IMG/VR virus record: IMGVR_UViG_3300049436_000058
Span: 1-31,651 of that record
Length of the DNA stretch: 31,651 nt
Reading direction: 5' to 3' (one strand)
From: a virus
Taxonomy: Duplodnaviria; Caudoviricetes
Below the pieces are notes generated by a model. That model did no database searches, was not told the DNA's origin, and worked only from the letters and a program-made list of their open reading frames with translations. This document shows, piece by piece, positions 21,285-31,548 of this stretch (position 1 is the stretch's first letter; the number at the start of each line of letters is the position of its first letter). Made by a program: the position numbers and the translations under genes.

Positions 21285-21662
21285 ATGGCCGAACCGACGG
21301 CAACCACCGCAGCCGCCACTGCCGCCACCACGGCCGGCTTCACGATCTTCGGCTATCTGGCCGGCTTGCATCCGGACCTCGTCATCGCCGGACTGGTTGG
21401 CGGCATCGCGGCGATCCTCGCCATGGAAACCATGCCCGCGCGGCAGCGGATCGAGTCCGTCCTCGTCGCCATCGTCACGTCAGGGCTGTGCGGCCCGATC
21501 CTGGTCTTCGCGGCGCCGCGCATCTTCCCCGACGTGCTGGGCGGCATCGACACCGGCGCCCTGCGCCTGGCGGTCGGCTTCGTGCTCGGCGTGCTCGCAT
21601 ACGGCGTGCTGGTGCCGGCACTCATCCGCCGCGTCGGCCGCGAACTGGGGGGGCGAAAATGA
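21285..21662 (+). CDS. Putative holin
   Basis: AAGGAG RBS; about 3 hydrophobic segments, basic C-terminus; upstream of the endolysin. Confidence 0.65.
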   Translation: MAEPTATTAAATAATTAGFTIFGYLAGLHPDLVIAGLVGGIAAILAMETMPARQRIESVLVAIVTSGLCGPILVFAAPRIFPDVLGGIDTGALRLAVGFVLGVLAYGVLVPALIRRVGRELGGRK

Positions 21663-21949
21663 GCCTCGATCAGATCCTGTTCCTCGCCATTGTTCTGGTC
21701 GCCACAGTCAAGATCGAGTGCGCCTTCCAGCGCATGAGCTGGCGCACCTGGCCGCCGCGCTGGCTCGCCGACCTGGTGCTGCTGGTGGCCAGCGCCGCCG
21801 GCGCCCGCGAGATCCTCGCCCACGCCTGGCAGCCCGGCTGGGTGCCGCTGCTGCTGCTCGCCGGCGCGACCTTGCTGCTCGTTTTCGAGCGCCGGTCGCC
21901 CGTCACCTGCAAGCCAAAAAATGATCCCGCCACCCACCATCCCGTTTGA
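21659..21949 (+). CDS. Second membrane protein of the lysis module (holin/antiholin-like)
   Basis: ATGA overlap; 96 aa with about 3 hydrophobic segments. Confidence 0.6.
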   Translation: MSLDQILFLAIVLVATVKIECAFQRMSWRTWPPRWLADLVLLVASAAGAREILAHAWQPGWVPLLLLAGATLLLVFERRSPVTCKPKNDPATHHPV

Positions 21950-22055
21950 TGCGGGTGAAGCCTTCGACCCGATCGCCTTTTTCGGCGCCGTCGGCCTGGT
22001 GTCCGGCCTCGTGCTAGGCATGTTGGCGGTGCTGGCCTGGGGGATTCCATCATGA
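21921..22055 (+). CDS. 44-aa single-TM peptide (not in the ORF track)
   Basis: MIPPPTIPFDAGEAFDPIAFFGAVGLVSGLVLGMLAVLAWGIPS; fills the gap and its TGA overlaps the endolysin ATG. Confidence 0.5.
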   Translation: MIPPPTIPFDAGEAFDPIAFFGAVGLVSGLVLGMLAVLAWGIPS

Positions 22056-22561
22056 GATCCATCGACACCCTCGTCATCCACTGCTCGGCCACGCAGAATG
22101 GGCGGTGGACTACCGCCCCGGACATCGACCGCTGGCACGACGACCGTGGCTTCGAGCGCCGCGACCACTGGCGCGAACGCTTCAACCCGGACTACAAGGC
22201 CATCGGCTACCACTTCGTTATTTACACCGACGGCCAGGTGGTCACCGGCCGCCACCTCGACGAGGTCGGCGCCCACGCCAGCGGCCACAACGCCCGCTCG
22301 ATCGGCGTCTGCATGATCGGCACCAGCGCCTACACCGTTGCCCAGTGGCGCGCCCTCGACGGCCTGGTGGCCAAGATGCGCACCCGCTATCCCACTGCGC
22401 GGATCCTCGGCCACCGCGACCTGTCGCCGGATATCGACGGCGACGGCACCATCGAACCGAACGAATGGCTCAAGACCTGCCCCGGCTTCGACGTGGCCAC
22501 CTGGTTAACGTCACACGGAAACATCCCGGAGGCGCTGGTGCTCGAAGCGCCGGCCGACTGA
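22052..22561 (+). CDS. Endolysin, N-acetylmuramoyl-L-alanine amidase (T7 lysozyme-like)
   Basis: VIHCSAT, IGYHF, GAHASGHN..SIGVCMIG, GHRDLSPD and KTCPGFDV motifs. Confidence 0.95.
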   Translation: MRSIDTLVIHCSATQNGRWTTAPDIDRWHDDRGFERRDHWRERFNPDYKAIGYHFVIYTDGQVVTGRHLDEVGAHASGHNARSIGVCMIGTSAYTVAQWRALDGLVAKMRTRYPTARILGHRDLSPDIDGDGTIEPNEWLKTCPGFDVATWLTSHGNIPEALVLEAPAD

Positions 22562-22624
22562 TCAGGCCCGCCCCCCCGCCCGCCTTCTCTGACCGGGAAA
22601 GGGCGGGGGCGGTGAGGGGCCTGA
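22562..22624 (+). other. Long imperfect GC-rich hairpin ending the late operon
   Basis: TCAGGCCC...GGGCCTGA outer arms with CCGCCC/GGGCGG inner arms; no clear U tract. Confidence 0.5.
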
Positions 22625-22633
22625 AACTAATCC

Positions 22634-22662
22634 TTGACAAGTTCGCAAACGCGAACTAAGAT
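22634..22662 (+). promoter_or_regulatory. Strong sigma70 promoter with a palindromic operator in the spacer
   Basis: TTGACA (22634-39), 17 nt, TAAGAT (22657-62); inverted repeat AGTTCGC-AAAC-GCGAACT at 22640-22657. Confidence 0.88.
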
Positions 22663-22713
22663 TCAAACCATGGAGGGCGGCATTCGGCAGCCCCCACTCT
22701 CAGGAGAGTCAAG

Positions 22714-22986
22714 ATGAAATTCCAAAAGTGGCAACACCCCAAGACCGATGAAGTGCGCATCTACGTGAATGGTGCGGCTGGCTTCGGCGTCAAGGTCTAC
22801 GTGGTCGACGGCGGTGTGACCGGACACTACCCGGCCGACTTCCCGGAAGTGGTGGTGCGCGCCGACCACATGATCGGCCAGTCGCAGGTCGACGCGATCA
22901 TGAATGATGTTGAACAGCATGTGTGCGAGGCCCTGAGCCTCGATCGCGGCATGAAGTATTCCGACATCGTTAAACTCGCGCCATGA
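22714..22986 (+). CDS. Candidate anti-CRISPR / anti-defence protein, 90 aa
   Basis: Small ORF with AGGAG RBS between a strong operator-bearing promoter and an aca2-like gene (ATGA overlap). Function is by association only. Confidence 0.6.
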   Translation: MKFQKWQHPKTDEVRIYVNGAAGFGVKVYVVDGGVTGHYPADFPEVVVRADHMIGQSQVDAIMNDVEQHVCEALSLDRGMKYSDIVKLAP

Positions 22987-23456
22987 CCCCTTCCAGCCTG
23001 CAGGCGCTGCGGCGCCTGCTCTTCTTCTCCGTCGAGGAGGCCGCGCTGCTGGTGGCGGCGTCCGCCGATCGCCCGCAGGGCGTCTCGCCGCGGTCCTGGC
23101 AGTACTGGGAGCGCGGCGAGCGGCCGGTGCCGACCGACGTGGCCGAGACGATCCGCCATCTGTGCGCCTGGCGCGCGCAGGCCATCGCCACGGCCGATGC
23201 CGCCGTGGCCTCAATGCAGGCCCGCCACAGCGCTCCGGCCGATGTCGTGCTGATCTGGTATCAGACGCTCGACGATTGGGCTTCCATGGCCGGACGTGAG
23301 CCGCTGCAATGGCGGCCGCAGTGTTCGGTAGTGGCGGAGCTGGCCGCGCGACACGGCGCGCGCCTGGTGACGTTCGACGGGCCAGGCTATGCCGCCTGGC
23401 TCGGCCGGCGGCAGGATTCGGAGACGATGCGGTCTGAGTGGGCGGCGAGTCTTTAA
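22983..23456 (+). CDS. aca2: Aca2/YdiL (DUF1870) family HTH regulator
   Basis: LQALRRLL..SVEEAA...VSPRSWQYWERGERPVP.DV and Y.TLDDW....WR...SV match my recollection of the Aca2 pattern. Confidence 0.85.
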   Translation: MTPSSLQALRRLLFFSVEEAALLVAASADRPQGVSPRSWQYWERGERPVPTDVAETIRHLCAWRAQAIATADAAVASMQARHSAPADVVLIWYQTLDDWASMAGREPLQWRPQCSVVAELAARHGARLVTFDGPGYAAWLGRRQDSETMRSEWAASL

Positions 23457-24994
23457 GCCGCTTTTTTATTCCTCGGCGCCTGAAACGGCACCGAGCCATG
23501 CAGAATGGGGTTATCACCAGTTCCCCGTGGGGACGCCACCTTAACCCCACTTGCGCCGATCCGGTAGCGGATCGATCCGGCGCGGGTGGCGGGATCCAGC
23601 ACGATCTTCTCGATGAAGCCGCCGAGGAAGTCCTTCAGGGCGGCGCGATCGAGCTCGGCCATGTCTTCGGCCAGGGCGCCGAGCATTCGGCGCACGTCGC
23701 TCTCTTTCACGGCTGCCAGCGTCTTGGCGCGCCGCGTCTCTTCTTCCAGCCTGGCCAGCCGCTGGCTGGTCGTCTCGCGTTCCTTCTCCAGTTCATCCAG
23801 TCGCCGCAGCAGCGGGCCGGGCATTTCAGCGGCTTCGAGGAGTGCAGTCAGCTTGCGGATCCGCGTGTCGGTGTCGCGCAGCTCTGCCTGCAGGGTCTGC
23901 AGCTCGGCGCCGTCGCCCGGCTGTTGCGCCGCTCTGGCGGTTTCGGTCATGGCCTTGACGATGGCGTCGCTGCGGATGTCGATCGCCATCTGCTGCAGGA
24001 CGGCCTCCTCGAGCATGGCCGAACGGATGTTCGCGCTGCCGGCGCGATAGTTGCCGGCATTGCCGTGCCAGGCTCCCCCGTCGGGCGTCAGAACCTTGCC
24101 GGCGAGGAGATAGTCCGATGCGCGGACACGGGTCGCCCGGGCGGCTTTGTTTCCCTCCAGGCGCGCCAGGATGGCCTCGGCGGCCGCGTCGGCGATGAGG
24201 GCGGCGTGTGTATCGCGCTGGATGATCCATTCGGTCCTGGGCCGCCGGCGGCCGCCGGCGCCTCCTTCTTCCTTGCCACGGTGCATGTTCCAGACGGTGT
24301 GTCCGGCGTAGGTGAGGGCGGACCATTCCAGGTGCGCCAGACTGCTGGGGGCGAGATCGATGCCGAGCGTCTGGGCGAGCTGGCGGCCGTTCTTGCCGGC
24401 GGCGCGGCCGTTGAGCCAGGCGGCGATCTTCTCGCCGTTGGCGTCCGGCTCGAGCCGGCTCTTCAGGACCGGCTGGCCGTCGCGCACGACGCCGGTGTCG
24501 ATCGGCACCAGGCGGTAGCCGTAGGGCGCGCGGCCGCCGGCGCGGTAGCCGTTGCGGACGTTCTCGGCCATGCCGGCGAGGCCCTTCTCGCGGCTCATGA
24601 GGCTGTGCACTTCGTCCATCGCCTGCAGCACGCTGTCGAGGATCACCTGGGAGATCGGGTCGACCTCGGGCACCTTGGCGAAGACGATGTCGACGCCGAG
24701 CTTCTTGCATTCGTGGCGGAAGGCCTCGGCGATGTAGCGGCGGCGGCCGATGCGGCTGGTGTCGTAGATGAGGATGGCGGACCAGGCGCGGCCGCGCACC
24801 TTCATGTCGCGCAGCAGCTGCTGGAAGCCGGCCCGGTCGGTGTCCTTGCCGGACTCGACGGCGTCGGTGTACTCAGCGGTGACGATCAGGTCGCGGGCCC
24901 TGGCCAGCGCCAGCAGCTCGTGACGTTGCGCCTGTATCGAGATCGCGCTGCGGTCCTTCGACGACCGACAGTAGAGGGCGGCTTGTCTTGGCAT
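23453..24994 (-). CDS. Large serine recombinase (phage integrase)
   Basis: Catalytic YCRSS, D...SG....R.GFQQLL, DTSRIGR, GGRAPYGY motifs and a C-terminal coiled coil; 513 aa. Confidence 0.95.
   Translation of the reverse strand: MPRQAALYCRSSKDRSAISIQAQRHELLALARARDLIVTAEYTDAVESGKDTDRAGFQQLLRDMKVRGRAWSAILIYDTSRIGRRRYIAEAFRHECKKLGVDIVFAKVPEVDPISQVILDSVLQAMDEVHSLMSREKGLAGMAENVRNGYRAGGRAPYGYRLVPIDTGVVRDGQPVLKSRLEPDANGEKIAAWLNGRAAGKNGRQLAQTLGIDLAPSSLAHLEWSALTYAGHTVWNMHRGKEEGGAGGRRRPRTEWIIQRDTHAALIADAAAEAILARLEGNKAARATRVRASDYLLAGKVLTPDGGAWHGNAGNYRAGSANIRSAMLEEAVLQQMAIDIRSDAIVKAMTETARAAQQPGDGAELQTLQAELRDTDTRIRKLTALLEAAEMPGPLLRRLDELEKERETTSQRLARLEEETRRAKTLAAVKESDVRRMLGALAEDMAELDRAALKDFLGGFIEKIVLDPATRAGSIRYRIGASGVKVASPRGTGDNPILHGSVPFQAPRNKKAA
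23506..23549. other. attP site with a core matching a tRNA-Glu 3' end
   Basis: Dyad centred on GT (23527-28): TCCCC/GGGGA inner arms and TGGGGTTA/TAACCCCA outer arms at symmetric positions. TCCCCGTGGGGACGCCA (23522-38) resembles the 3' end of proteobacterial tRNA-Glu. Confidence 0.8.
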
Positions 24995-25085
24995 GGAAGT
25001 CCAGGATCAGCGCCACGGCCGCGTCGGCGACCAGGCGTGCGTCCGGTTGGTTTTCGGCGGTGATTGTGAGCGCGGGGCGAGGCAT
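24873..25085 (-). CDS. Small hypothetical protein overlapping the integrase start
   Basis: 70 aa; ATG 3 nt after the upstream stop. Confidence 0.5.
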   Translation of the reverse strand: MPRPALTITAENQPDARLVADAAVALILDFHAKTSRPLLSVVEGPQRDLDTGATSRAAGAGQGPRPDRHR

Positions 25086-27520: not shown

Positions 27521-27762
27521 GGGATCAACCTCATCTGCCCGGCGGCTTCGAGTTCGATGGCAGTGGGCGGGATGGGCATGTCCGGATCCCAGCCGCAACA
27601 GTCGAAGGCGGCTTCTTCGCACTCGTGGAAGTCGCGGCACAGCGGGCAGAGGTAGCCTTCGATGATCTCCGGCGCGCAGCATTCGCGGGCGTCGTCTTCG
27701 TTGTCGTGCACATCGCCGCAGCGATCGCACTGCCAGGCTTCGGGCGCGCTCGCCTGGCTCAT
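27517..27762 (-). CDS. Small Cys-rich (zinc-binding) protein
   Basis: Two internal repeats of CxxC...H.....A..CC. Confidence 0.75.
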   Translation of the reverse strand: MSQASAPEAWQCDRCGDVHDNEDDARECCAPEIIEGYLCPLCRDFHECEEAAFDCCGWDPDMPIPPTAIELEAAGQMRLIP

Positions 27763-29639
27763 GGCCGCGCTTCGGTCGGGAAAGGCCAGGTGGTGCTGGC
27801 CAGCGACGATGGCTCAGCGGCGGGCTTGGTCCTGGCCGGCGCAGCCGGCACGTTCCCTTCCGCCGGCGAAGCCGGCGCTGGACTTGCCTTGGCCTTCGGT
27901 TTTTTCGGCGCGGCGGGCTTCTTCTCCGCCGCCGGCGCAGCTTTCGTCGCGCTTTTGTCTTTCGCTTGCGCAGCAGAGGTAGGGGGAGAGGCCTTCTTCG
28001 CGGGTTTTTTGGGTTTCTCCCTGGCGCGGAATTCGGCGGCGACTTCCTTCTTGATGGCTTCGGCGTCGATGTCGTAGGCCTTGGCGGCTTCGAGCAGGCG
28101 CTCGGGCTTTTGGTCGAGCTGCCAGGCGTTGGCGAAGGTGTCGTCGACCAGCGCCATTTCGATCAGCAGGCGGCCGTGGTCGGCGGCCGTCCGGCCGGGC
28201 AGGCCCTCCTTGAAGTCGGCGATCAGCGCGTGGTCGTCCTGCTTCTTGTCGGTGGGGCCGATCCACAGGCGCGCCAGGCGCTTCTGCGCGTCGAAGCTGA
28301 GGTGATCGAAGAAGGATTCCGCGACCCAGCGGAGCTCGATGTCCTTCAGGTGCAACTGGAGTTCTGGCGTGGTTCGCTGGTTCGCATCGAAGTCCTGCGT
28401 CAGGTGGCTGCGGATGGCGTCGAAGAGGCGGCCGCGCCATGCGTTCTCCTGCTTGGCCTTCTGCTCGCGCTTCTTCTGGGCGTCGTCCTTGCGGCCGGGG
28501 CGGGCGTCGAGCTTGATGCCCTTGGCTTCGAGGTGTTCCTGGACGGTGGCCTTGGGCAGGATCTCGATGAGCTTGCCGGGCTCGTGCGGATCTTCCAGCA
28601 GCGTGGGCGGCGGCGCTTTCTTGCCGAGGAGCTCGCGGTAGGTCTTGTATTTCGCGCCGTCGGCGCTGCAGTGCTCGTCGAGCGCGACATAGTCGCCCTT
28701 GAGTTCGTCGTTGTAACGCGAGGGCTTGAGCTTTTCCGCCGCCTTGCCGGTGATGACGTCCTGGCCGCGCGCCTTGGCCTCGGCGATCATGCGCGCGGTA
28801 TGGGCGTCCTTCTTGGCGGCGAAGCAGGCCGGGTCGGTGCAAACGTCGGCACTCTTGACGTCGGCGAAGAGCTCCGGCTGGCTGCCGGTGCGCTTGGGGC
28901 AGTCGGCACACTTGGGCGCGCCGGCGACGAGATCCGCATCGCCGCGCGGGAAGGGCGCCTCGGCCAGGCGCAGCATGTAGTGGTTCTGGATGTGGTCGGC
29001 CGCGCGACGGTAGGACATCGGCTCCTGGTATTTGCCGCCGAGGATGGTGTCGAGCGCCTCTTCCTGCAGCGCCTCGGTGGGGATGCGGGCGATGAGCAGC
29101 GCGCGCGAGGGGTCGAGCTTGCCATCGGCCAACGCCGCGCGCGCCTTCTTGCCGCACTCCAGCAGCTTGAGCTGGGCGTAGACGTGGGAGCGGCTCTTGC
29201 CGATCTGCGCGGCGATGGTGTCGGCGGTGTGGCCGTGATCCTGCATCAGGCGGCGGTAGCCTTCGGCCTCTTCGATGGCGGTGAGGTCCTTGCGCTTGAG
29301 GTTCTCGATGAGCTGCAGCTCGATCGCCGCCTTGTCGTCGATGTCGCGCCAGAAAAACGGGATGTCGGCCAGGCCAGCGATCTCGGCGGCGCGCCAGCGG
29401 CCCTCGCCGCAGACGATCTCATAGAGCACGCCGGCGGGCGCCTTGCCGCGTGCGGCCGGCCAGGGGCGGGCGGTGATGGGCTGGATGACGTCGTGGTCGC
29501 GGATCGAGGCGGCGAGTTCGTCGAGGTAGGCTTTGTCGGTGTGCTTGCGGTTCGTCAGCGAGGCGGCGAAGTGGGCGAGCGGGGCGCGGGCGACCACCAG
29601 GGCGCCGGCGGGCTGGGCGAGGGTTTCGGGTGCGTTCAT
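27759..29639 (-). CDS. parB: ParB/Spo0J-family protein
   Basis: ELAASIR...VIQPI, YEIVCGEGRWRAA, ENLKRKDL..IEEA, HTH (IAAQIGKSRSHV), C..CPKR and CTDP.CF motifs. Confidence 0.9.
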   Translation of the reverse strand: MNAPETLAQPAGALVVARAPLAHFAASLTNRKHTDKAYLDELAASIRDHDVIQPITARPWPAARGKAPAGVLYEIVCGEGRWRAAEIAGLADIPFFWRDIDDKAAIELQLIENLKRKDLTAIEEAEGYRRLMQDHGHTADTIAAQIGKSRSHVYAQLKLLECGKKARAALADGKLDPSRALLIARIPTEALQEEALDTILGGKYQEPMSYRRAADHIQNHYMLRLAEAPFPRGDADLVAGAPKCADCPKRTGSQPELFADVKSADVCTDPACFAAKKDAHTARMIAEAKARGQDVITGKAAEKLKPSRYNDELKGDYVALDEHCSADGAKYKTYRELLGKKAPPPTLLEDPHEPGKLIEILPKATVQEHLEAKGIKLDARPGRKDDAQKKREQKAKQENAWRGRLFDAIRSHLTQDFDANQRTTPELQLHLKDIELRWVAESFFDHLSFDAQKRLARLWIGPTDKKQDDHALIADFKEGLPGRTAADHGRLLIEMALVDDTFANAWQLDQKPERLLEAAKAYDIDAEAIKKEVAAEFRAREKPKKPAKKASPPTSAAQAKDKSATKAAPAAEKKPAAPKKPKAKASPAPASPAEGNVPAAPARTKPAAEPSSLASTTWPFPTEARP

Positions 29640-30229
29640 GCGTGGCTCCAGAGGGTTTTGGTGACGTCGAGGAATTTCGAGAGGCCGACGACCTCGGCCT
29701 GAGTGAGCTTGACCGAGACCTCGCCGACGGCGATGCCCAGCGCGCCGGAGTTCTCGATGGCGAAGCGGGCAGTGCTGTCGTCGATGGGCGTGATGGATTC
29801 ACCGGCCATCGCTTCCTGGGCAATCATCTGGCGACCCAGCGCATGGGCCCCCTGCTGCGATGTGAGTCTCGGTTTCTCGGCCGGCGGCTTCGGCCAGGGC
29901 TTGGGCGCCTTGACCTTGCCACCGGATGGGCCATAAACGAAGCGCACGCCGCGGCCGGAGCCGGGCGGGGCGTCGTGGCGCGCGATCGTGCCGGCGTCGG
30001 TGAGGGCGCGCAGGTGTGGGAAAAGTTCGGCCGCGTCGACGCCGAGCGCCAGGGCGATGACGCCGGGCGGCTGCGGCTCGGCGAGCTTGTTGATGTGTGC
30101 GGCGGCGGTGTCGGCGATGCCGCCGGATTCCTTCCTTTTGGGCATGGTGTCGGGTTCCTCCGGGTGGGTGGGTTCGTTGGGTGCGGTGTGCTCGAGCTGC
30201 GAGACGAGCTGGGCGAAGATGTCGGTCAT
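29636..30229 (-). CDS. Phage hypothetical protein with a possible wHTH
   Basis: 197 aa starting at the ATGA overlap with the intI stop; ends in an ATGA overlap with parB. Confidence 0.7.
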
Positions 30230-31191
30230 GCGGCAAGCCTGTCGAGCGGACTGGCGTGGCCGGCCGCGCCCTTCACAGCCACGTGGGTGTAGATCATGGT
30301 GGTGCTCAGGTCGGCGTGGCCGAGCAGCTGCTGGATGGTACGGATGTCGGTGCCGCTCTCCAATAGATGCGTAGCGAAGCTGTGGCGCAGGGTGTGCGCG
30401 CCGACGGGCTTGACGATCTTGGCCAGGGCGCGCGACGACTTGATGGCCTTCGACACCGCCGAGTCGTGGATGTGGTGGCGGCGGATCTCGCCGGTGCGCG
30501 GATCCGGCCCGGGCTTCGAGGCGGGGAAAACGAACTGCCAGCCGAACTGCTTGGCCGCGCCGGGATATTTGCGGCCGAGCGCGCCGGGCATGTAGGCGTC
30601 GCCCAGGCCGGCAGCGAGATCGCGCACGTGGGTGCGGCGCACCGTCTCTATGTGGTGCTTGAGCGGCTCGGCGACGGCGGCCGGCAGCATGACGGCGCGG
30701 TCCTTGTCGCCCTTGCCCTCGCGCACGGTGATGATGCGCCGCGCGAAGTCGATGTCCTTGATGCGCACCGAGAGGCACTCCTCCAGGCGCAGGCCGGCGC
30801 CGTAGAGCAGCGCGCCGATTAGCCAGTGCATGCCGTGCAGGTGGTCGAGCAAGCGGGCGACCTCGTCTGTGGAGAGCACCACCGGCAGGCGCTTCGGCTG
30901 CCGGGCGGGATGGAAGCCGGAGAAGTCGCCGACGTCCTCGCGCAGGACGTGCTTGTAGAGGAAGACGATGGCGTTGAGCGCCTGGTTCTGCGTCGAGGCC
31001 GACACCTCGCGCTCGCGTGCCAGGTGGGTGAGGAAGGCGCGCACCTTGTCCTCATGACCGCCATCGGCGTGGTCCCGGCACCAGAAGGCGAAGCGCTTGA
31101 TCCAATGCAGGTACGCCTGTTCCGTCCGGTAGCTCATGTGCCGGAAGCGGAGGACGTTGCGCGCGGTTTCGAGTGCCAGGTCGAGCTTCAT
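30226..31191 (-). CDS. intI: Integron integrase
   Basis: [39 protein letters not shown], integron-specific insertion ALGRKYP...WQFVFP...[28 protein letters not shown]. Catalytic R-K-H-R-H-Y residues are all present. Confidence 0.96.
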
Positions 31192-31211
31192 GTCTGCGAT
31201 ATTTGCCGGTG

Positions 31212-31233
31212 GGCTTATGAATCTCTGTTATGC
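31212..31233 (+). other. Putative attI site (core GTTATGC at 31227-31233)
   Basis: GTT core 35 bp from the intI start, divergent from it. GTTATGCCTC is the exact reverse complement of GAGGCATAAC at the far end of the cassette. Confidence 0.7.
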
Positions 31234-31542
31234 CTCACTTGCACGTCCGCACCTTGCCGTCCGGAGAGTACGCCACGGACGCCCCACTGGTGAATTGCAG
31301 GTACATCACGCCATCCACGCAGGTATGCGCAATTCCGGTCACGCTAGCTACGCCACGATCCCACGCGCCGCAGCCAGCAAGGCCAAGCGCAATCACAATT
31401 GCCAGTGTCGTTTTCATGTTTCGTTCCTCTCGTCAAAAGTCGGTTCTAGTGGTACGGCGAGGCATAACCCTACGGTCGACCCCGTTCGCTTCGCTCTCTG
31501 GACGCTGCGCGATAAAGCCGCGCAGCGCCGGTCACCTACTCG
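31228..31542 (+). mobile_element. Integron gene cassette 1 (ORF inverted)
   Basis: Bounded by G|TTATGC and the attC crossover G|TTAGGG; holds one ORF; appears less GC-rich than the phage backbone. Confidence 0.8.
31235..31417 (-). CDS. 60-aa lipoprotein in cassette 1
   Basis: MKTTLAIVIALGLAGC lipobox; GAGAGGA RBS; two further Cys. Confidence 0.85.
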   Translation of the reverse strand: MKTTLAIVIALGLAGCGAWDRGVASVTGIAHTCVDGVMYLQFTSGASVAYSPDGKVRTCK

Positions 31543-31548
31543 TTAGGG
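31462..31548 (+). other. attC site, 87 bp
   Basis: R'' GCATAAC, 5 nt, L'' GGTCGACC (extra C), central hairpin GCTGCGCGATAAAGCCGCGCAGC, L' GGTCACC, 5 nt, R' GTTAGGG. Confidence 0.9.

What the first reader, a model, noticed from the sequence alone, without database searches (positions are those of the whole stretch)
22634..23456. Candidate new anti-CRISPR gene in an acr-aca2 operon
Seen: a near-consensus promoter with the palindrome AGTTCGC-N4-GCGAACT between -35 and -10, a 90-aa ORF, and a coupled Aca2-like HTH gene, all between the lysis genes and attP. Established: Aca2 represses acr operons through inverted repeats in the promoter and is used as a marker to discover Acrs. The 90-aa protein does not resemble the aca2-linked Acrs I recall (AcrIF8, IF9, IF10, IIC1). 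Inference: an undescribed Acr or other anti-defence protein.
Basis: partly seen in the sequence, partly recalled or inferred. Interest (0 to 1): 0.8.

Follow-up and report, generated by a model that had tools for sequence, protein, structure and literature searches.

The report
New phage anti-CRISPR candidate family
A phage carries a small gene with no match to any solved or curated protein, placed under the standard control switch of anti-CRISPR genes, and its relatives in other phages sit beside anti-CRISPR genes, so it likely encodes a new inhibitor of bacterial immunity (not yet tested).

Summary
Promoter TTGACA-17-TAAGAT (22634-22662) carries an operator 20/22 identical to a published Aca2 binding probe. 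It precedes a 90-aa ORF (22714-22986) that overlaps a true aca2 gene (22983-23456; PF08965, PDB Aca2 E 3e-17, DNA-reading Arg kept). The cassette lies between the endolysin and an att core equal to the 3' end of tRNA-Glu. The 90-aa protein has 11 database homologs (45-64% identity) and no Pfam, PHROG, PADLOC, PDB-sequence or fold match. Both independent contexts found for close homologs are acr-type operons with other partners. One is promoter-homolog-unknown-aca10. The other is promoter-homolog-acrIIC1-small putative regulator, in a Methylophilus prophage whose host has a type II-C Cas9 locus. Other phages with the same Aca2 operator carry AcrIF6, AcrIF9 or other unknown genes in the same slot. 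Best reading: an undescribed anti-CRISPR family (about 0.6); otherwise another anti-defence protein (0.25). Inhibition and target are untested. Only two independent contexts were seen, and Acr catalogues could not be searched, so an earlier listing as a candidate is not excluded.

The parts
22052..22561 (+). Amidase endolysin, last gene of the lysis module (context)
   Evidence: PF01510 E 1.1e-17; phrog_822 E 9.5e-50
22562..22624 (+). Strong GC-rich hairpin right after the endolysin stop; likely insulates the cassette from the late transcript (no U-tract; not called a terminator by the scan)
   Evidence: 28-nt arms; -46.2 kcal/mol, z -3.47, 1 of 200 shuffles as good; absent from the terminator list
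22634..22662 (+). Near-consensus sigma-70 promoter TTGACA-17-TAAGAT
   Evidence: same layout in four other aca2 loci
22640..22657 (.). Aca2 operator (IR1 type, TTCG-N6-CGAA core) between -35 and -10
   Evidence: core and spacing as in PMC6765145; 22641-22662 is 20/22 identical to the L009 operator, which holds the published Aca2 probe
22672..22709 (+). Predicted tandem 5' UTR hairpins (22672-22695; 22696-22709, the second covering the GGAG ribosome site); candidate Aca2 RNA motif
   Evidence: MFE fold -16.4 kcal/mol but z only -1.12; first hairpin conserved over 5 aca2 leaders, 6 of 8 pairs with a compensatory change
22714..22986 (+). 90-aa candidate anti-CRISPR (P0001), predicted four beta strands plus two helices; GC 58% against 67% for the window
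   Evidence: contexts
22983..23456 (+). Aca2 repressor, 157 aa; R37 aligns with the DNA-reading R30 of ZF40 Aca2
23522..23538 (+). Likely attP core, identical to the last 17 nt of tRNA-Glu
   Evidence: exact match in 26 of 61 genomes, 0 for the reversed control; 4 of 4 loci checked are tRNA-Glu ends
23453..24994 (-). Large serine recombinase, convergent with aca2 (context)
   Evidence: PF00239 E 5e-19; phrog_95 integrase E 2.5e-48

Best explanation
This is an acr-aca2 operon of a temperate phage whose 90-aa first gene likely encodes an undescribed anti-CRISPR protein. On DNA entry the unrepressed strong promoter would give a burst of the 90-aa protein, which is predicted to act by binding a Cas effector complex rather than as an enzyme (inferred: it is small, has no recognisable catalytic motif, and its invariant residues W6, K10, R15, Y17, N19, G20 cluster in the first beta hairpin). 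Aca2, translated from the overlapping frame, would then bind the operator between -35 and -10 and probably the 5' UTR hairpins, and turn the operon down for lysogeny. Shown: anatomy, Aca2 membership, operator identity, gene neighbourhoods. Inferred: expression, repression, inhibition, target. Type II-C Cas9 is the first target to test; type I (I-C, I-F, I-E) is about as likely.
For: Aca2 family and key Arg. Operator 20/22 identical to a locus with the published Aca2 probe, an Aca2 matching PDB 7ezy and an AcrIF6 homolog. Of 40 viral loci with the operator-plus-minus-10 pattern, 6 (4 distinct) have aca2 downstream; the slot gene is AcrIF6-like in L009/L011 (E 8e-6), AcrIF9-like in L038 (E 3e-18), unassigned in L025 and L028. 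Homolog context 1 (L003/L004/L005, one phage): promoter, homolog, 98-aa unknown, Aca10 homolog (PDB 7xi5 E 6e-21), with the best Aca10-operator match of the 10.2-kb locus (16/21, + strand) lying between -35 and -10. Context 2 (L008): promoter, homolog, AcrIIC1 homolog (PDB 9j2g E 7e-16 and five other AcrIIC1 sequences), 64-aa putative regulator; the host genome has cas9-cas1-cas2 with an array and no Cas3 over the cut-off. Lower GC than neighbouring genes.
Against: No assay. Only 2 independent close-homolog contexts; the 11 database homologs have no DNA context here. Aca operons also hold non-Acr genes (PMC13551039), Aca2-like regulators occur in other settings (PMC8434428), and a 62%-identical Aca2 in L006 follows an ATP-grasp gene rather than an evident acr. 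The closest solved relative of the L008 neighbour, AcrIIC1Vei, is reported inactive against Nme1Cas9 (bioRxiv 10.64898/2026.06.11.731568). The protein is only mildly acidic (pI 4.4-6.8 over 12 members). The partners point to different CRISPR types. None of 3 spacers of the L008 host matched the loci held.
Confidence: 0.6

Rival explanations
1. The operon is a genuine Aca-regulated early anti-defence unit, but the 90-aa protein would inhibit a non-CRISPR defence (restriction-modification, CBASS, Gabija, Thoeris, retron or similar).
For: The same family is paired with regulators and partners tied to different CRISPR types (Aca2, Aca10, AcrIIC1), which fits a cargo useful whatever the Cas type. 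PMC13551039 finds helicases, RM genes, Mom and PAPS reductases in aca operons. In L008 a Cas9 inhibitor family is already present.
Against: In the aca2 loci where the slot gene could be named (2 of 4 distinct), it is an Acr. No match to solved anti-defence proteins by sequence. Several Acrs per operon are common (e.g. acrIC7-acrIC6-aca10).
Confidence: 0.25
2. The gene is an accessory (moron) gene with no anti-defence role, e.g. superinfection exclusion or host take-over, that has been captured into aca-type cassettes.
For: It sits in typical insertion spots (next to lysis genes and att; between portal and terminase regions in L004). Aca2-like genes can stand in other contexts (L006).
Against: Three of three close-family loci (window, L004 group, L008) have an acr or aca gene in the same operon, each a different one; it is always the first gene behind a strong promoter.
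Confidence: 0.1
3. It is a remote member of an Acr family that is already published but has no solved structure or library model, so it would not be new.
For: Pfam and NCBIfam missed true AcrIF6, AcrIF9 and AcrIIC1 homologs here, so those negatives are weak; Anti-CRISPRdb, AcrDB and dbAPIS could not be searched; two supplements or papers were out of reach.
Against: No PDB sequence hit at E up to 10 for the protein and only unrelated hits (best E 0.045) for a 12-sequence profile; four family motifs absent from the full-text library.
Confidence: 0.05

Closest known systems
acrIF8-aca2 operon of phage ZF40 and other acr-aca2 operons (acrIF6, acrIF9, acrIIC1)
   Same: Strong sigma-70 promoter, TTCG-N6-CGAA operator, short leader with predicted tandem hairpins, one small gene, then aca2 with the recognition-helix Arg.
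   Different: The slot gene has no sequence match to any solved Acr. This Aca2 is longer (157 aa against 115-125), with a 7-residue insertion before the recognition helix and a C-terminal extension shared with the 62%-identical L006 and L028 proteins. No TTCG-N8-CGAA IR2; the first leader hairpin is kept by structure, not sequence.
acrIC7-acrIC6-aca10 operon (PMC9410881)
   Same: The L004 homolog is the first of two small genes before an Aca10 homolog, with an Aca10-like operator (16/21) between -35 and -10.
   Different: Neither small gene of L004 matches a solved protein; the window itself uses Aca2.
AcrIIC1 (Cas9 HNH inhibitor)
   Same: Direct downstream neighbour of the L008 homolog, in a host with a II-C locus.
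   Different: No sequence similarity to the 90-aa protein; a neighbour, not a relative.
Aca14 (ribbon-helix-helix Aca, PMC13551039)
   Same: The 64-aa last gene of the L008 operon looks RHH-like by eye (recalled pattern) and fills the aca position.
   Different: No Pfam, NCBIfam or meaningful PDB hit; not compared with Aca14.

Membership tests
acr-aca2 operon | Downstream gene belongs to the Aca2 family | tested here: met
   PF08965 68.6 bits over cut-off 23.8; four PDB Aca2 sequences E 3e-17 to 2e-8, YdiL only 2e-4
acr-aca2 operon | DNA-reading Arg (R30 of ZF40 Aca2) in the recognition helix | tested here: met
   VSPR37SWQYWE aligns with VSAR30SWQYWE; role of R30 from PMC8434428 passages
acr-aca2 operon | IR1 operator TTCG-N6-CGAA in a strong sigma-70 promoter | tested here: met
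   22642-22655; definition; 20/22 to L009
acr-aca2 operon | Two 5' UTR hairpins bound by Aca2 | tested here: inconclusive
   Two hairpins predicted but z -1.12; hairpin 1 covaries in 5 leaders, hairpin 2 not in the consensus; the paper defining the motif was not held
acr-aca2 operon | Aca2 represses the promoter | not testable with these tools
   needs EMSA or reporter
Anti-CRISPR protein (functional class) | Small MGE gene linked to aca or acr genes across independent loci | tested here: met
   window (aca2), L004 group (aca10), L008 (acrIIC1): 3 of 3 close-family loci
Anti-CRISPR protein (functional class) | Inhibits a CRISPR-Cas system | not testable with these tools
   no assay
Anti-CRISPR protein (functional class) | Host tolerates a self-targeting spacer | tested here: inconclusive
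   3 spacers of G001 gave no hit to L008, L004, L028, L007 or the window; array cut by contig end and only 5.5 kb of the prophage held
AcrIF6, AcrIF9, AcrIIC1 (solved aca2-linked Acrs) | Sequence homology | tested here: not met
   These are in the PDB library and were found by other queries but not by P0001 or its profile at E up to 10
Any solved Acr fold | Structural similarity | tested here: inconclusive
   No clear match for the model; a weak or missing match does not exclude a shared fold
Published Acrs without solved structure | Sequence homology | not testable with these tools
   no Acr database available; library models miss even true Acr homologs

The most novel reading that the evidence does not exclude
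A new anti-CRISPR family of betaproteobacterial phages, with a fold unlike any solved Acr, that moves as the lead gene between cassettes run by three unrelated repressors (Aca2, Aca10 and an RHH-like protein) and inhibits type II-C Cas9 or acts across CRISPR types.
Probability: 0.4. Interest if true: 0.7.

Novelty: new member of a known kind. Interest (0 to 1): 0.55.

Why it matters
If it inhibits a Cas system, it adds an Acr family with no known sequence or fold relative, from environmental Betaproteobacteria that Acr screens have sampled little (own knowledge). A Cas9 inhibitor would be usable as an off-switch in genome editing. If it blocks a non-CRISPR defence, it would be direct proof that Aca2 and Aca10 operons carry wider anti-defence cargo, which PMC13551039 predicts but, in the sections read, does not assay for such unknown genes. 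The family is small, soluble-looking and has 13 ready homologs, so the test is cheap. The operon type itself is well known.

Tried and rejected
Family libraries for P0001: Pfam none at E up to 1, NCBIfam two hits far under cut-off, PHROGs one at E 0.22 and none shared across 14 members, PADLOC none. PDB by sequence: none; profile hits to ATP synthase b (E 0.045 and worse) rejected as chance. Fold searches with the AlphaFold model (pLDDT 83.5, pTM 0.70, other four models 66-70): Foldseek PDB best E 0.65, BFVD best E 0.25, VIA-align best Z 4.1, none at Z 5 or more of 48,161 chains; AcrIIC2 appears at Z 3.2, rmsd 4.0, 63 aligned, which is background. ESM Atlas gave nothing usable. GenBank phages: two hits at E 0.7, rejected; plasmids none. 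0 of 400 further genomes in the order of G001. Longer fused forms: none among 8000 candidates, weak evidence. L060 dropped: the match is a stretch of a tail-fibre gene. L007 (28% identity, profile match only residues 2-42, N-terminus of a 215-aa protein before a 128-aa unknown) kept out of the counts as a doubtful member. 34 of 40 operator-pattern loci have no aca2 and are treated as chance. Rfam: nothing near a gathering score in 22400-23800. Leaders of L004, L008 and L007 fold no better than shuffles. The profile search of 1.84 billion representatives was queued but had not run, so remote relatives remain unexplored. No complex prediction was run, as no target is known. Earlier scan notes: nothing.

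Full report
Observation. The window is a whole 31,651-base virus record, linear, about 60% complete. TTGACA (22634) - 17 nt - TAAGAT (22662) is the only promoter-like site in 21500-25000, against 0.3 expected. The palindrome AGTTCGC-AAAC-GCGAACT fills the spacer. The 90-aa ORF (22714-22986, P0001) has a GGAG ribosome site and overlaps the start of a 157-aa ORF (22983-23456, P0002) by ATGA. Upstream lie holin-like genes and an amidase endolysin, then a strong hairpin at 22562-22624 (z -3.47). Downstream a large serine recombinase runs the other way. Inside its 3' end, 23522-23538 is a 17-nt stretch found exactly in 26 of 61 genomes of a related order (0 for the reversed control), and it is the 3' end of tRNA-Glu in 4 of 4 loci checked. 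That is the likely attP core, so 'between lysis genes and attP' is right (the att role is inferred).

The regulator and operator are real Aca2 parts. P0002 scores 68.6 bits on PF08965 (cut-off 23.8) and matches four solved Aca2 sequences (best 7ezy, E 2.6e-17) better than YdiL. Its R37 aligns with R30, which passages of PMC8434428 give as needed for autoregulation. A palindrome of this size is not rare here: 12 perfect 7-N4-7 repeats occur in the window. But this one has the TTCG-N6-CGAA core given for Aca2 IR1 in passages of PMC6765145. A scan of viral contigs for the operator plus -10 found locus L009, which holds the Aca2 probe printed in PMC9410881 (passages; sequence), an Aca2 that reads the same as the 7ezy chain over the aligned 118 residues and an AcrIF6 homolog (E 8e-6). 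The window matches it at 20 of 22 bases. A looser scan gave 40 loci; 6 of them, 4 distinct, have aca2 downstream and 34 do not. In those four the gene between promoter and aca2 is AcrIF6-like (L011, the same record as L009), AcrIF9-like (L038, E 3e-18), a 67-aa protein without library hit (L025; not run against the PDB) and a 100-aa unknown (L028 group). L028 has an Aca2 62% identical to P0002 and an almost identical promoter but a slot gene unrelated to P0001. So the slot is exchangeable and, where nameable, holds an Acr. The five leaders share a first hairpin with 6 of 8 pairs showing a compensatory change. In the window a second hairpin covers the ribosome site, but the fold is not better than shuffles on its own (z -1.12). 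Passages of PMC13551039 state that Aca2 binds two leader hairpins to block translation; the primary paper was not held, so this match is suggestive only.

The 90-aa protein is a small family. A single-sequence search gave 2 homologs among 4 candidates; a three-sequence profile gave 11 homologs at 45-64% identity among 23 candidates, none with an informative name. With two locus-derived members the alignment has 14 rows and 17 invariant columns, six of them (W6, K10, R15, Y17, N19, G20) in the first hairpin. AlphaFold2 predicts four strands and two helices (pLDDT 83.5, pTM 0.70). No library, PDB-sequence or fold search gave a credible match. Pfam and NCBIfam also missed true AcrIF6, AcrIF9 and AcrIIC1 homologs, so only the PDB-sequence negative carries weight, and only for solved Acrs. 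The ORF is 58% GC against 67% for the window and 67-72% for five other genes. pI is 4.4-6.8 over 12 members.

Neighbourhoods of homologs are the main evidence. DNA context was obtained for two independent close homologs; the 11 database proteins have none. (1) L003, L004 and L005 are 99.96-99.99% identical records of one phage. There a 95-aa homolog (51% over the alignment) follows TTGACA-17-TATTAT, then come a 98-aa unknown and a 73-aa HTH protein matching PDB 7xi5 at E 6e-21, which is Aca10. The best match in the 10.2-kb locus (+ strand) to the published Aca10 operator, 16 of 21, lies exactly in that promoter spacer. The cassette is on the opposite strand to the portal gene. (2) L008 is a prophage end in a Methylophilus genome. 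A 91-aa homolog (42%) follows a TTGACA-16-TATTAT site (read by eye), then come an AcrIIC1 homolog (E 7e-16 to 9j2g, five more AcrIIC1 sequences) and a 64-aa gene in the aca position that has no hit. The cassette abuts lysis genes whose endolysin is 51% identical to the window's. The host genome has one cas1, a Cas9 at 717 bits, cas2 and four repeats, with no csn2 or cas4 seen, and no Cas3 over the cut-off: a type II-C system (subtype inferred; the genome may be incomplete). Thus 3 of 3 close-family loci put the gene first behind a strong promoter with an acr or aca gene in the operon, each time a different one. L007 (28%, N-terminal part only) and L060 (chance) were left out.

Against. There is no assay. 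Two contexts are few, and 0 of 400 further genomes, GenBank phages and plasmids added none. Section 23 of PMC13551039 reports 450 genes under predicted Aca1 or Aca2 control with fewer than half annotated, among them helicases, RM genes and PAPS reductases, so aca linkage does not prove an Acr and candidates like this are many. L006 has a 62%-identical Aca2 behind an ATP-grasp gene. AcrIIC1Vei, the nearest solved relative of the L008 neighbour, is described as inactive on Nme1Cas9 (passages of bioRxiv 10.64898/2026.06.11.731568). Three host spacers matched none of the loci held.

Mechanism. Most likely (0.6) the protein is an anti-CRISPR made in an early burst and later silenced by Aca2 at the operator and perhaps the leader RNA. 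A binding mode through the conserved first hairpin is inferred from size and conservation only. The target is open: the one visible host has II-C only, Aca2 is known with I-F and II-C Acrs, and Aca10 with I-C. A non-CRISPR anti-defence role (0.25), a non-defence accessory role (0.1) and a remote member of an already published Acr family (0.05) are the rivals. The window's host is unknown; a member of the Aca2's 90% cluster comes from a Rhodocyclaceae genome, which suggests a betaproteobacterial host.

Is it in print? Four family motifs gave 0 papers in the full-text library; keyword searches (listings only unless cited above) showed no such family; the supplement of PMC13551039 has no RIYVN string, but its cluster figures are images and that study mined IMG/VR aca operons, so this locus may be among its unnamed clusters. 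The supplement of PMC7913775 could not be read. Papers seen: passages of PMC6765145, PMC9410881, PMC8434428 and the bioRxiv preprint; abstract, sections 23 and 24, passages and supplement passages of PMC13551039; listing only for PMC7913775.

Verdict. A real acr-aca2 operon with an undescribed cargo family and good guilt-by-association support: a new member of a known kind, interest 0.55.

Noticed in passing
window 30226-31545 (- strand): An integron integrase (TIGR02249, 411 bits, cut-off 265) in the phage record, preceded on the same strand by an attC-like site (about 31460-31545, read by eye) and a 60-aa lipoprotein-like ORF (31235-31417). A phage-borne integron module, or a host junction at the record's end.
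   Followed up: partly
L028:1370-1672 (also L045, L046): A second unknown slot gene: 100 aa, between a near-identical Aca2 promoter and a 62%-identical Aca2; no Pfam, NCBIfam, PADLOC or PDB hit. Another Acr candidate.
   Followed up: partly
L004:5302-5598: 98-aa unknown between the P0001 homolog and aca10; no library or PDB hit. Another Acr candidate.
   Followed up: partly
L008:794-988: 64-aa RHH-looking gene in the aca position behind acrIIC1; possible new or Aca14-like regulator. No hit in three libraries.
   Followed up: partly
L004:4888-4914: Perfect 12-bp inverted repeat (TATCGTATAAAA-N3-TTTTATACGATA) just upstream of the cassette's -35, between divergent genes; binder unknown.
   Followed up: no
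L025:1374-1577: 67-aa slot gene before aca2; no Pfam or NCBIfam hit, not run against the PDB.
   Followed up: no
L006:2204-3459: Aca2 homolog (62%) directly behind an R2K ATP-grasp gene and a zinc-ribbon gene, convergent with lysis genes: this long Aca2 clade in a different setting.
   Followed up: partly
L007:4986-6016: Promoter-like site, 215-aa protein whose N-terminus weakly resembles P0001, and a 128-aa unknown, followed by a transposase-like ORF; acr-aca-like layout.
   Followed up: partly
window 23453-23550: The att core lies within the last 30 codons of the serine recombinase, so integration would change the enzyme's C-terminus; its stop codon overlaps that of aca2.
   Followed up: no
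window 27759-29639 (- strand): 626-aa ParB-family protein (TIGR00180 over cut-off) in the early region.
   Followed up: no
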